IMG/VR virus record: IMGVR_UViG_2529293040_000015
Reading direction: 5' to 3' (one strand)
Length of the DNA: 17,201 nucleotides
Source of the DNA: a virus
Taxonomy: Duplodnaviria > Heunggongvirae > Uroviricota > Caudoviricetes
Position numbers: made by a program. Positions 1 through 3,000 of the stretch are shown here, in pieces. How positions within the stretch are numbered: position 1 is the stretch's first letter; each line of letters starts with the position of its first letter.

Positions 1-3000
1 CACTGAACGTGTACTGCAGGTAATGGCTGGGTGGAAATCGACAACAACATCGCAGAGAACGCCTTACGGGGAGTGGCCGTAGGCCGGAAAAACTGGATGT
101 TCGCGGGTTCCGACAGCGGTGGTGAACATGCGGCGGTGTTGTACTCGCTGATCGGCACATGCCGTCTGAACAATGTGGAGCCAGAAAAGTGGCTGCGTTA
201 CGTCATTGAACATATCCAGGACTGGCCGGCAAACCGGGTACGCGATCTGTTGCCCTGGAAAGTTGATCTGAGCTCTCAGTAAATATCAATACGGTTCTGA
301 CGAGTCGCTTACAGAACGCTCAACGGTGGGGATTATTCTGGTTACCGGACGCAGCGATCGGATTGACCGTATTGTTGGGCTGGAAATGGGCGCAGACGAT
401 TACGTCACCAAACCGCTGGAGCTGCGCGAACTGGTGGTACGAGTGAAAAATTTGCTCTGGCGAATCGACCTCGCGCGACAGGCGCAACCGCACACTCAGG
501 ACAACTGCTATCGCTTTGCCGGTTATTGCCTGAATGTGTCGCGCCATACGCTGGAGCGGGATGGAGAGCCGATTAAACTGACCCGCGCAGAGTATGAAAT
601 GCTGGTGGCGTTTGTGACCAATCCCGGCGAAATTCTCAGCCGTGAACGTCTGCTGCGTATGCTCTCTGCGCGTCGGGTGGAAAACCCTGACCTGCGCACC
701 GTCGATGTGTTAATTCGTCGTTTACGCCATAAACTCAGTGCAGATTTACTGGTGACACAACATGGCGAAGGTTATTTCTTAGCCGCTGATGTGTGCTGAT
801 AAAAATAAACCGGACGAAATCCCCCTGGTGACAGCGAGCGGCGGATATGTTCGCGGTCGGCATTTTTCGGCGTCATGACTAAAATCGGTGGGCTGACATT
901 ATCAGACACCGATTGCCCCTGTAATTGCCTGATAGCCTGCTCAACCGCCAGTTCCCCCTGCCAGACCATTTGATCGCTGGCTGCCATAATCACTCTTCCC
1001 CGCTTCAACCCGCGATACACCTGATGTGAAAGATAAAACGACACCACGGTAAGCGGCGTTTTCAGGTTGCGCCCTTCCCCCATTGCCGCCTCTGCCGCAA
1101 TGGCCGTTCCGGCAACGACGTCGATTTCTGGATGGCGTTCCAGCATCTCCTGCAACAGGTTACGCTGGATTTCAATATCGTTATCACCGAGCGCAATATC
1201 GACAATACGTACCGGGCTTCCGGCAATGGCTGCGCGAAAACCCTCTACCATCTCCTTACTGCCCCCGGCGTTATCGGGGCCGGGCATCAACAGCACGTTC
1301 AGTGGTTTTCCGTGACTCCATTGCACCAGATATCGCCCTGGTTGATAGCCCATCTGAAACCACGGCACACCAACGCGGCTTTTCACCTGGGGAGCATCAA
1401 TAGCATTTACCAGTTCGATCACCGGCAGACTTGCTACCTGCTTTTGCAGGTCGGGAAATGACGTCGTGCTACTACCGAGCAAAATGGCCTCTGCACCCCA
1501 CTGTTTACACTGGTCGATTTGTGCTTGCTGCGTAGCCAACTGGCTGTAGCCGCCTGCCTCCAGCACTTTTAAATCCACACCGTAGCGGCGAGCAGCCTCC
1601 TGCATACCATAGTTCAACGATAACCAGTATGAATCTTTCAAACTGGGATAAAGCGCGCACAGTTTCCATGCGCGTTTGGCTTTTAGCGGCGTAGAGGCTT
1701 GCACCGTGTAATGCTGTGCATCATGCCAGCGCAACAGGTTATCAGCCGAAAATGCCGATAACATGAAAAGGGAAAGTAGTAACAATAGCAGTACGCGCAT
1801 GATAGCCTCATCAATAATAAGGCTTTATGCTAGATGCATTCCGCTTTGCGACTCAACCTTTTTCACCCAAAGGATGACAAAATTATATAAATCATTTAAA
1901 AATCACATGCTTATAAGTATTTACGGTTAAATAACAGACTACAAAATGCGACAAAACACAACATATGCAGTCACTATGAATCAACTACTTAGATAGCATT
2001 AGTGACCTACAACAGAGCATTAGCGCAAGGTGATTTTTGTCTTCTTGCGCTAATTTTTTGTCAAACACATTGCGTCGTTTGCTGAATTTACAACCATGCT
2101 CAGTATCTCTATAAGCGCAGAGAAATGATGCAGTGGTGGGTGGGCTGGCTTGATGAAAAGGTGGGGTACTCCACCTGAACCACTATCGGAATAGCACAAA
2201 GCCTTGCAATCCAGTGCAAAGTTTTGTGTGCCTCCGTTTGCCCCACCAATATATATTCAGCACAAGAAACACAGCTAAAGCAATGGATGCAGTCTTACCT
2301 GTTGGAATCCCAGACTCACTGTATTGTCATCATGAATAAGAGCTGAGTCGTGCGGGTAGGAGGTTCTACGGGGCATCCCAATCTCTTCGCGGAATTTATT
2401 TTCTGAAAGCACCTCCTCTGAAAAAGCCCCCAACCCAACAGTCCTGGCTTCTTCGAGTAAAAGTGGAGAGTATTTTTGTGATTCTGGTCGGGAACTCTCA
2501 ACTTTCAAACGCTCCCCATTTAAATTGTGGAAAACATGGAGCAACTCATGAAAAACAATAGTCGCATGAAAGTCCACCACGCTAATCCCCTCCCCACAGG
2601 GATATTCAACTGCATTCAGATTACAGTGAAAATCGGAACCAGTCCCCCGATGGTTCTCAGCATCTATATCTCTATGTGCCATAACTCCTAGTCTGGAAGA
2701 GTTGAGGTGTATTACCACTGTTTCTGATTTAAGTCGGGATATTGATTCAATAGCATTCAGGAGTACACGCCCTGTCTCTGTAGAGCCAATCTTATCGAGT
2801 GCTGCTTCAATCTGCTGATATATATTATGATCAGTCCCCTGGAAACGAAGTTGCGGATTATTTTTTATCCATTGAACGCTCGATGCTTTTACAAGAGACT
2901 CGATATCTGTATCTGACATTGAGCTCGACGTTGATGACTGATGTAATACCAAGTTGAGGGACGTAGGGCGCATCAGGACTCCTGAGAATGCTACTTATTA

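What the first reader, a model, noticed from the sequence alone, without database searches (positions are those of the whole stretch)
1801..2274. Probable prophage-chromosome junction next to torT, with a perfect 11-bp palindrome
torT's start (1800) is followed by 474 bp without ORFs and then by phage cargo genes, where an uninterrupted tor locus would have torS. The torS-torT intergenic region is, to my recollection, a documented integration site for lambdoid prophages in E. coli. The perfect inverted repeat 2030-2065 followed by T5 could be a terminator insulating torT from phage read-through or a recombination or binding site. The att core cannot be pinned down from one junction alone.
Basis: partly seen in the sequence, partly recalled or inferred. 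Interest (0 to 1): 0.5.

Follow-up and report, generated by a model that had tools for sequence, protein, structure and literature searches.

The report
HK022-type prophage attR beside torT
This stretch is the right-hand attachment site (attR) of a lambda-like, HK022-type prophage inserted between torS and torT in an EPEC E2348/69-like strain, and its palindrome is the well-known phage 'sib/tI' terminator that controls integrase expression. It is a textbook feature, not a new one.

Summary
torT starts at 1800, and similarity to empty torS-torT sites ends at 1872. Phage DNA follows.

The att core can be placed exactly at 1855-1875 on the + strand: AACCTTT / TTCACCC / AAAGGAT, which is B'-overlap-C. 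It matches the phage HK022 core at 20 of 21 positions.

Joining the bacterial arm of the E2348/69 attL to the bacterial arm of this attR gives a 257-bp sequence. That sequence occurs 100% identical and uninterrupted in empty-site E. coli genomes.

Positions 1876-2014 are a lambda/HK022 P arm containing the P2, H1 and P1 sites.

The palindrome has arms at 2019-2029 and 2044-2054, followed by a T-run. It is identical over 50 of 50 bases to the annotated HK022 'sib transcription processing site' and to the lambda and 434 terminator downstream of int.

The T-run lies on the + strand, which is the direction of int transcription. nleD and torT are on the other strand, so the hairpin is not positioned to shield torT.

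Positions 2062-2274 are spacer 3' of nleD, 97% identical to phage 434.

The site, the prophage (E2348/69 PP4) and sib are all published. The feature is already known and of low interest.

The parts
772..1800 (-). torT coding sequence (context; chromosomal)
   Evidence: RefSeq annotation of the 100%-identical E2348/69 segment; ORF list.
1801..1854 (.). [quoted passage not shown] It holds the bidirectional PtorT/P1torS promoter and the IscR site. On the - strand, PtorT has -35 TTGAGT at 1856-1851, -10 TAGCAT at 1832-1827 and its TSS at 1820. On the + strand, P1torS has -10 TATGCT at 1826-1831 and its TSS at about 1838.
   Evidence: Colinear with K-12 and with more than 5,000 empty sites. I placed the promoter positions from the coordinates in the Figure 1B legend and text of PMC13644379. 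These placements are inferred, not measured in this strain.
1855..1875 (.). attR core of HK022 type, read on the window + strand: B' AACCTTT (1855-1861), 7-bp overlap TTCACCC (1862-1868), C AAAGGAT (1869-1875). Similarity to empty sites ends at 1872. DNA found only in the phage begins at 1873.
   Evidence: K-12 attB is GCACTTT AGGTGAA AAAGGTT and the E2348/69 attL is GCACTTT GGGTGAA TAAGTTG. The HK022 attP is CAACTTA TTCACCT AAAGGAT. A Stx1a phage record annotates the matching 15-bp 'duplication due to insertion'. The reconstructed empty site is found at 100% identity. The boundaries of the 7-bp overlap are taken from my recollection of the HK022 literature.
1876..2014 (.). P arm of attP. An H2-like IHF site is at 1901-1913 (AATCACATGCTTA). 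The Xis/Fis region is at about 1933-1966. The P2 arm-type Int site is at 1963-1982 (CAGTCACTAT at 1968-1977). IHF H1 is at 1979-1991 (AATCAACTACTTA). The P1 arm-type site is at 1995-2014 (AGGTCACTAA on the - strand, 2008-1999).
   Evidence: Positions 1858-2065 are 88% identical to the HK022 attP + sib, and 1928-2063 are 93% identical to lambda. Lambda's annotated 'int 2' maps to 1963-1982 at 20/20 and 'int 1' to 1995-2014 at 16/20. The only perfect matches in the window to the IHF and arm-type consensus sequences fall here. The names of the Xis sites come from my own knowledge of lambda.
2012..2061 (+). sib/tI: terminator and RNase III processing site of the int transcript. The 11-bp stem is 2019-2029 / 2044-2054, the loop is 2030-2043 and the T6 run is 2054-2059. 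An extended stem, 2012-2017 / 2056-2061, can form only in read-through RNA.
   Evidence: It is identical at 50/50 positions to the 'sib transcription processing site' annotated in HK022 record X51962.1. Positions 2020-2061 match the 'terminator' annotated in phage 434 record OL657226.1. The columns are invariant across lambda, 434, HK022 and the window. The fold gives -24.3 kcal/mol and z = -7.1. In the variant list of 76 viral contigs only a few sequences change a stem base, whereas the loop varies.
2062..2274 (.). Non-coding phage 'b-region' spacer 3' of nleD. It contains a truncated small phage ORF (2086-2178, + strand) and a - strand hairpin at 2221-2202, 53 nt after the nleD stop codon. 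The hairpin is a candidate nleD terminator.
   Evidence: Positions 1928-2300 are 97.1% identical to phage 434, including its nleD-like gene. The ORF fragment hits PHROGs. The scanner reports a terminator-like site. Other prophages at this site diverge from 2061 onward.
2275..2973 (-). nleD, a T3SS effector zinc metalloprotease and the first cargo gene of the prophage (context).
   Evidence: RefSeq annotation; Pfam Peptidase_M91; assigned to PP4 in PMC2697328.

Best explanation
Window 1801-2274 is the attR junction of a lambdoid prophage, the counterpart of PP4 in EPEC E2348/69. The phage integrated by Int-mediated site-specific recombination at the HK022 attB in the torS-torT intergenic region.

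From left to right the region contains:
- 54 bp of host DNA with the torT promoter;
- the recombinant core B'-O-C at 1855-1875;
- the phage P arm at 1876-2014, carrying the sites that Int (P1, P2), IHF (H1, H2), Xis and Fis use to assemble the excision complex;
- the sib/tI hairpin at 2012-2061;
- a spacer running to the stop codon of the cargo gene nleD.

How sib/tI works is established knowledge for lambda. In the circular or infecting phage, int lies immediately upstream on the same strand. Transcripts from pI stop at tI. Antiterminated pL transcripts read through it and complete an extended stem, which RNase III cuts. The int message is then degraded; this is called retroregulation.

In the prophage, sib sits at attR, about 45 kb from int at attL. 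After induction Int can therefore be made together with Xis, and the phage can excise.

What is shown here: sequence identity, position, orientation, the predicted fold, the in-silico empty site, and a cognate HK022-type Int and Xis in the closest genome.

What is inferred: that recombination and RNase III processing actually operate in this strain.
For: - Similarity to empty sites ends at 1867-1872.
- The core matches HK022 attP and K-12 attB.
- Joining the attL bacterial arm to the attR bacterial arm gives a 257-bp sequence found 100% identical and contiguous in at least 12 genomes. At least 99% identity is seen in 80 records.
- 5,217 of 5,417 genomes have an uninterrupted site.
- E2348/69 has torS-int-xis ... 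nleB2-nleC-nleD-torT.
- Its Int is 97% identical to HK022 Int, with D99, P282, K283, K287 and R319. Residues 1-55 are identical in all four integrases compared.
- Its Xis is 100% identical to HK022 Xis.
- Lambda's annotated Int sites map onto 1963-1982 and 1995-2014.
- The HK022 'sib' annotation maps to 2012-2061 at 50/50, and the 434 'terminator' to 2020-2061.
- The hairpin folds at -24.3 kcal/mol with z = -7.1, and the T-run is on the + strand.
- In 76 viral contigs the same P2-H1-P1-sib block is joined to either a lambda-type core (61 contigs) or an HK022-type core (8 contigs, at the same 107-bp spacing as here). Similarity ends just after the T-run.
- Literature: HK022 attB lies between torS and torT, about 5% of genomes are occupied, and E2348/69 is listed (PMC6814406). 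torS-torT is a known Stx1 phage site (PMC10042803). attR architecture is described in PMC4880445. sib retroregulation of int is described in PMC5300877.
Against: - The int-proximal junction of the window's own strain is not in the window. attL was taken from E2348/69, which is 100% identical over 1501-2600 but only 98.7% over 313-14614.
- The overlap differs from HK022 at one base (C at 1868). The same base is present in empty-site alleles and in one viral attP.
- The core-proximal P arm (1876-1927) is only about 85-88% identical to HK022.
- Rfam has no model for sib, so there was no hit.
- The simple terminator scanner did not call the hairpin, because its loop exceeds the scanner's 8-nt limit.
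- Tail genes are frameshifted. The prophage may be defective, and the att and sib elements may no longer be in use.
Confidence: 0.93

Rival explanations
1. The palindrome would act on the - strand as a terminator that keeps transcription of nleD and other phage cargo from running into torT.
For: nleD and torT are co-directional on the - strand, with the hairpin between them. The - strand RNA also folds, at -18.9 kcal/mol with z = -6.5. torT transcription is unchanged in HK022 lysogens, which carry the same hairpin (PMC6814406).
Against: On the - strand the stem is followed by UGCUCUGUUGU rather than a U-run. The T6 run is on the + strand. The element is conserved base for base in lambda, 434 and HK022 whatever lies beyond it, and it is annotated as sib. 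A separate - strand hairpin at 2221-2202 sits closer to the nleD stop. The torT result is equally explained by there being no read-through at all.
Confidence: 0.08
2. The palindrome would be a protein-binding or recombination site that forms part of the att machinery.
For: It directly abuts the P1 arm site. The extended stem overlaps 2012-2014 of the mapped 'int 1' region.
Against: It lies outside all annotated Int sites of lambda and outside the 'attP site' feature of the HK022 record, which maps to 1858-2008. Its sequence resembles neither the arm-type nor the core-type consensus. Its stem is almost invariant while its loop varies, and it is followed by a T-run, which is the pattern expected of an RNA hairpin.
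Confidence: 0.02
3. The junction would not be a product of Int recombination. It would instead come from a rearrangement or deletion that happened to bring phage cargo next to torT.
For: The region carries IS scars. An IS66-family element sits in torT's neighbour torR, and IS256 and NleH fragments lie beside nleD.
Against: The breakpoint falls exactly in the HK022 core, with a complete P arm at the canonical spacing of 107 bp. The matching attL sits next to int beside torS in E2348/69. In-silico excision restores an extant empty allele exactly.
Confidence: 0.02

Closest known systems
attR of coliphage HK022 integrated at attB(HK022) between torS and torT (Yagil et al. 1989, record X51962.1; Carey et al. 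2019, PMC6814406)
   Same: The chromosomal site and orientation are the same, with int beside torS and the P arm beside torT. The core is the same at 20 of 21 positions, and the P-arm layout is the same. The sib sequence is identical. In the closest genome Int is 97% and Xis 100% identical to HK022.
   Different: There is one substitution in the overlap (GGGTGAA instead of AGGTGAA), and it matches the host lineage's attB allele. The core-proximal P arm has diverged by about 12-15%. Beyond sib the DNA is of 434 type and carries T3SS effector cargo rather than HK022 genes.
Phage lambda / 434 attP P arm and sib/tI retroregulator of int
   Same: P2 matches at 20/20. H1 and the centre of P1 are identical. 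The sib hairpin and T-run are identical. Positions 1928-2300 are 97% identical to phage 434, including its nleD-like gene.
   Different: The core and core-proximal arm (1855-1927) are unrelated to lambda's GCTTTTTTATACTAA core. The integrase carries HK022-type core-specificity residues.
Prophage PP4 of EPEC O127:H6 E2348/69 (carries NleB2, NleC, NleD, NleG and an NleH3 pseudogene)
   Same: Window 1501-2600 is 100% identical to it, and gene order is the same through the tail-fibre region.
   Different: The window strain has an IS66-family insertion in torR that no complete genome shows. Overall identity over 313-14614 is 98.7%, and the sequence diverges after 14614.
Stx1a-converting phages of STEC O26:H11 integrated at torS-torT (LC744179 and related records; PMC10042803)
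   Same: The integration site and core are the same, annotated there as the 15-bp duplication CTTTTTCACCTAAAG. They also carry a P arm and a sib hairpin.
   Different: P-arm identity is only 87.5%, the sib loop has one extra T, and the cargo and phage backbone differ.

Membership tests
HK022-type (lambda-family tyrosine integrase) attR | A recombinant core made of the phage C half-site, the 7-bp overlap and the bacterial B' half-site of attB(HK022). | tested here: met
   In K-12 orientation, window 1855-1875 reads ATCCTTT GGGTGAA AAAGGTT. HK022 attP reads ATCCTTT AGGTGAA TAAGTTG and K-12 attB reads GCACTTT AGGTGAA AAAGGTT. There is one substitution in the overlap.
HK022-type (lambda-family tyrosine integrase) attR | Located in the torS-torT intergenic region, with host similarity ending at the core. 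| tested here: met
   Similarity to more than 5,000 genomes ends at 1867-1872. The K-12 intergenic region is 82 bp.
HK022-type (lambda-family tyrosine integrase) attR | A reciprocal attL exists, and precise excision regenerates an empty attB. | tested here: met
   attL is present beside int and torS in E2348/69. The 257-bp reconstructed site is found 100% identical and contiguous in empty-site genomes. The attL of the window's own strain could not be examined.
HK022-type (lambda-family tyrosine integrase) attR | A P arm carrying arm-type Int sites (P1, P2), IHF sites (H1, H2) and Xis sites at lambda-like spacing. | tested here: met
   Annotated lambda sites were mapped onto the window. The arm-type and IHF consensus sequences match perfectly at 1968-1977 and 1979-1991. 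The core-to-P2 distance of 107 bp equals that in 8 HK022-type viral contigs.
HK022-type (lambda-family tyrosine integrase) attR | A cognate integrase with HK022 core specificity, plus Xis, in the same prophage. | tested here: met
   These genes are not in the window. In E2348/69, Int is 97% identical to HK022 Int and has D99, P282, K283, K287 and R319 where lambda has N, S, G, R and E. Xis is 100% identical to HK022 Xis. That these five residues set core specificity is my recollection of the literature.
HK022-type (lambda-family tyrosine integrase) attR | Supports Int/Xis/IHF-dependent excisive recombination. | not testable with these tools
   This needs PCR for attP/attB junctions after induction, or an in-vitro recombination assay.
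Lambdoid sib/tI retroregulator of int | Sequence homology to the characterised sib of lambda and HK022. | tested here: met
   It matches the HK022 'sib transcription processing site' at 50/50 positions. The columns are invariant in lambda and 434.
Lambdoid sib/tI retroregulator of int | Lies just beyond the P arm, on the strand and in the direction of int transcription once attP is re-formed. | tested here: met
   In HK022 and 434 the order is int, then attP, then sib, all on one strand. The window + strand aligns colinearly with that orientation.
Lambdoid sib/tI retroregulator of int | A stable hairpin followed by a U-run (tI), plus an extended stem that only read-through RNA can form. | tested here: met
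   The predicted fold pairs 2012-2017 with 2056-2061 around the 11-bp stem. Energy is -24.3 kcal/mol and z = -7.1. This is a prediction only.
Lambdoid sib/tI retroregulator of int | RNase III cleavage of read-through RNA followed by decay of the int message. | not testable with these tools
   This needs an RNA analysis comparing rnc+ and rnc- cells.
   The tail on the - strand is UGCUCUGUUGU. The T6 run is on the + strand.

The most novel reading that the evidence does not exclude
In the lysogen, the torS promoter P1torS stays on the torT side of the insertion, with its -10 at 1826-1831 and its TSS at about 1838 on the + strand. It now points across the attR core into the P arm. The first thing it meets is the phage tI terminator, correctly oriented. 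This predicts a host-phage chimeric RNA of about 220 nt (about 1838-2059), repressed by IscR. It also predicts a second, lysogen-specific job for tI: stopping host-promoter transcription from running antisense into nleD, and from passing through the P arm where the excision complex assembles. Nothing tested here excludes this, and nothing shows it.
Probability: 0.2. Interest if true: 0.3.

Novelty: already known. Interest (0 to 1): 0.08.

Why it matters
It gives an exact annotation of a junction that genome pipelines leave blank or label as a pseudo 'hypothetical protein'. The core, P arm, sib/tI and the retained torT/P1torS promoter are all placed.

It also ties this EPEC effector-carrying prophage (NleB2, NleC, NleD, NleG) to an integration event already shown to rewire Tor regulation. 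In HK022 lysogens torS goes up, torT is unchanged, and bet-hedging is lost.

No new biology is implied. The value lies in correct annotation and in showing how modular these elements are: an HK022-type int and core, a lambda-type arm and sib, and a 434-type cargo module.

Tried and rejected
- An Rfam scan of 1600-2500 at E up to 1 found nothing. Rfam has no family for lambda sib.
- The consensus terminator scanner did not report the palindrome, because its 14-nt loop exceeds the scanner's 8-nt limit. It reported only two weak - strand sites.
- Across the whole window, matches to the IHF and arm-type consensus sequences are no more frequent than chance. Those scans support the sites only through position and alignment to lambda.
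- The 49-aa - strand ORF at 2050-2199 is annotated as hypothetical in phage 434. It has no PHROG match, so I treated it as non-coding.
- I looked for covariation in the sib stem across 76 viral contigs. The stem is almost invariant, so covariation neither supports nor contradicts the structure. Only the contrast between a varying loop and a constant stem is informative.
- The E2348/69 genome paper, which I recalled as PMC2612414, is not held. PP4 content was therefore cited from PMC2697328.
- In the machine-read supplement of PMC6814406, the alignment row labelled E2348/69 shows TTTAGGTG at attL. RefSeq NC_011601.1 reads TTTGGGTG there. I did not resolve this. The window itself carries the G variant at attR (C at 1868 on the + strand).
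- A rearrangement origin for the junction was considered and rejected, because in-silico excision restores an extant empty site exactly.
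Full report
**What is in the sequence**

torT occupies 772-1800 on the - strand. nleD occupies 2275-2973, also on the - strand. Between them lie 474 bp with no ORF of 60 aa or more.

Window 1501-2600 is 100% identical to EPEC O127:H6 E2348/69, NC_011601.1 positions 1088218-1089317. In that genome the gene order is yccM, torS (frameshifted), int, xis, a lambdoid prophage of about 45 kb, tail fibre genes, a DUF1076/NleG-like gene, nleB2, nleC, nleD, torT, torR, torCAD. In K-12, torS and torT are divergent neighbours only 82 bp apart.

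**Where similarity to empty sites ends**

Against 5,426 complete E. coli genomes, the torT side of the query matches almost everywhere, but the match stops at window 1867 or 1872.

A 260-bp K-12 probe centred on the intergenic region is contiguous in 5,217 of 5,417 genomes. About 3.7% are therefore interrupted. This agrees with the figure of roughly 5% published by Carey et al. 2019. Their supplementary table lists E2348/69 with a 45,626-bp prophage at this site (PMC6814406).

**The core**

In K-12 orientation the three sites read as follows:
- K-12 attB: GCACTTT AGGTGAA AAAGGTT
- window junction: ATCCTTT GGGTGAA AAAGGTT
- E2348/69 torS-int junction: GCACTTT GGGTGAA TAAGTTG

HK022 attP reads ATCCTTT AGGTGAA TAAGTTG. 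The window junction is therefore C-O-B', which is attR. The other junction is B-O-C', which is attL.

On the window + strand, B' is 1855-1861, the overlap is 1862-1868 and C is 1869-1875. A Stx1a phage record independently annotates the corresponding 15 bp as the 'duplication due to insertion'.

The single difference from HK022 and K-12 is a G in place of an A at the first overlap position, which is C1868 on the + strand. This is not an oddity of the junction. I joined the bacterial arm of attL to the bacterial arm of this attR, keeping the G. The resulting 257-bp sequence is found 100% identical and uninterrupted in at least 12 genomes, and at 99% or better in 80 records. The host lineage therefore has that attB allele, and in-silico excision regenerates a real empty site. 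An IMG/VR contig with an attP-like core carrying the G also exists.

**The P arm**

Window 1858-2065 aligns to the HK022 attP and sib region at 88% identity. Window 1928-2063 aligns to lambda at 93%, and 1928-2300 to phage 434 at 97%.

Lambda's annotated Int-binding regions map onto the window. 'int 2' (P2) maps to 1963-1982 at 20/20. 'int 1' (P1) maps to 1995-2014 at 16/20, with the central AGGTCACTAAT identical.

The only perfect matches in the whole window to the arm-type consensus (CAGTCACTAT, 1968-1977) and to the IHF consensus (AATCAACTACTTA, 1979-1991) lie here. Window-wide, however, such consensus hits are no more frequent than chance.

The proteins that would read these sites fit. In E2348/69 the Int is 97% identical to HK022 Int and 75% to lambda Int. 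Its N-terminal 55 residues, which form the arm-binding domain, are identical in all four integrases compared. It has D99, P282, K283, K287 and R319 where lambda has N, S, G, R and E. That these five positions switch core specificity is my recollection of the literature. Its Xis is 100% identical to HK022 Xis and 99% to lambda Xis.

How these sites build the excision complex on attR is described in PMC4880445: IHF at H2, three Xis molecules, Fis, and an Int bridge from B' to P2.

**The palindrome**

The perfect 11-bp arms are at 2019-2029 (ATTAGCGCAAG) and 2044-2054 (CTTGCGCTAAT). The loop is 14 nt and the T-run is at 2054-2059.

The repeat is well beyond chance. About 0.075 such repeats are expected per shuffled window, and the RNA fold gives -24.3 kcal/mol with z = -7.1.

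Window 2012-2061 is identical at 50 of 50 positions to the feature annotated 'sib transcription processing site' in HK022 record X51962.1. Window 2020-2061 equals the 'terminator' annotated in the phage 434 genome. In both phages the order is int, attP, sib on one strand.

The predicted fold adds an outer stem, 2012-2017 paired with 2056-2061. This stem needs the T-run to be transcribed. That matches the classical sib model, cited through PMC5300877 and otherwise from my own knowledge. Transcripts from pI stop at tI. Antiterminated pL transcripts read through and complete an RNase III substrate, and the int message is degraded. Integration moves sib to attR, far from int, so an induced prophage can make Int.

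Among 76 viral contigs that share the exact P2-H1 26-mer, only a few of the listed variants change a stem base. The loop varies, and similarity ends immediately after the T-run. In those contigs the block is joined to a lambda-type core in 61 cases and to an HK022-type core in 8. Another prophage at torS-torT carries the same arm and sib but different cargo (EspJ, Cif), beginning to diverge at window 2061.

nleD and torT are both on the - strand, so read-through from nleD into torT is geometrically possible. However, the U-run of the hairpin is on the + strand. On the - strand the stem is followed by UGCUCUGUUGU.

A different - strand hairpin at 2221-2202, 53 nt past the nleD stop, is a better candidate for ending nleD transcripts. 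It aligns with lambda across a G-U-compatible change.

In HK022 lysogens torT transcription is unchanged (PMC6814406). That result does not discriminate between the two readings.

**Host promoters retained at the junction**

I used the coordinates given in PMC13644379. The PtorT TSS falls at 1820 on the - strand, with -10 TAGCAT at 1832-1827 and -35 TTGAGT at 1856-1851, touching B'. P1torS shares that -10 region on the + strand and starts at about 1838. P2torS lay within attB and is destroyed by the insertion.

P1torS is thus orphaned and now points into the P arm, where it would meet tI. This is an inference only, and I report it as the most novel reading that is not excluded.

**The remaining 2062-2274**

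This stretch is 434-type spacer. It carries a 30-codon remnant of a small phage ORF at 2086-2178, with PHROG hits at E 7e-14. RefSeq marks this fragment as a partial pseudogene.

**Verdict**

The region is a canonical, already documented attR junction of HK022 type, with the lambdoid sib/tI element. The prophage corresponds to PP4, the NleB2/NleC/NleD/NleG-carrying prophage of E2348/69 (PMC2697328).

The role assigned to the hairpin and its coordinates need correction. The statement that the core cannot be placed no longer holds once other sequences are compared. Novelty: already known. Interest: low.

Noticed in passing
window 1-312 (junction at 312/313): The right end of an IS66-family element (Pfam DDE_Tnp_IS66 and IS66_C) is inserted into torR, which resumes at 313 lacking its N-terminal receiver part. 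None of 5,426 complete E. coli genomes has this junction. E2348/69 has an intact torR but a frameshifted torS. The Tor signalling system therefore appears to be decaying in this lineage.
   Followed up: partly
window 313-17201: The window is not E2348/69 itself. It is 98.7% identical over 313-14614 (177 mismatches, 11 gaps), and similarity stops at 14614, inside the tail-gene region.
   Followed up: partly
window 8847-12561, - strand: The gpJ tail-tip gene is split into three ORFs (8847-9893, 9890-10606, 10594-12561). RefSeq marks gpJ and the tape-measure gene of E2348/69 as frameshifted. The prophage is probably unable to make tails even though its att sites look intact.
   Followed up: no
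window 5581-5757 and 6457-6646: Direct repeats of about 190 bp, about 85% identical, flank the DUF1076/NleG-like gene (5836-6414). Each carries a perfect palindrome of 11 bp or more (5609-5639 and 6487-6513). The arrangement looks like a cassette.
   Followed up: no
L005 (phage 434, OL657226.1 22115-27461) versus window 1928-2300 and beyond: The classical laboratory phage 434 carries nleD-like, nleH-fragment and nleC-like T3SS effector genes directly beside sib-attP. The segment is 97% identical to the window. The effector cargo module is therefore shared between a lab phage and an EPEC prophage that have different core specificities.
   Followed up: partly
window 2202-2221, - strand: A hairpin, CTTTGCA-CTGGAT-TGCAAGG, lies 53 nt downstream of the nleD stop codon. 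It aligns with lambda across a change that keeps pairing only on this strand (through G-U). It is a candidate nleD terminator.
   Followed up: no
window 2086-2178, + strand: A 30-codon ORF fragment matches the C-terminal part of small phage protein families of unknown function (PHROG 37801 at E 7e-14, PHROG 14880 at E 9e-12). RefSeq annotates it as a partial pseudogene.
   Followed up: partly
window 3034-3376: Between nleD and nleC, RefSeq annotates an IS256-family transposase fragment and an NleH C-terminal fragment (the published NleH3 pseudogene). These are scars of earlier cargo shuffling, and phage 434 has the same fragments.
   Followed up: no
L003 13431-13451 (E2348/69 attL) versus supplementary file 11 of PMC6814406: The machine-read published alignment row labelled E2348/69 shows TTTAGGTG at attL, whereas RefSeq reads TTTGGGTG. 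This is probably an artefact of how the alignment table was read by machine. I did not resolve it.
   Followed up: no
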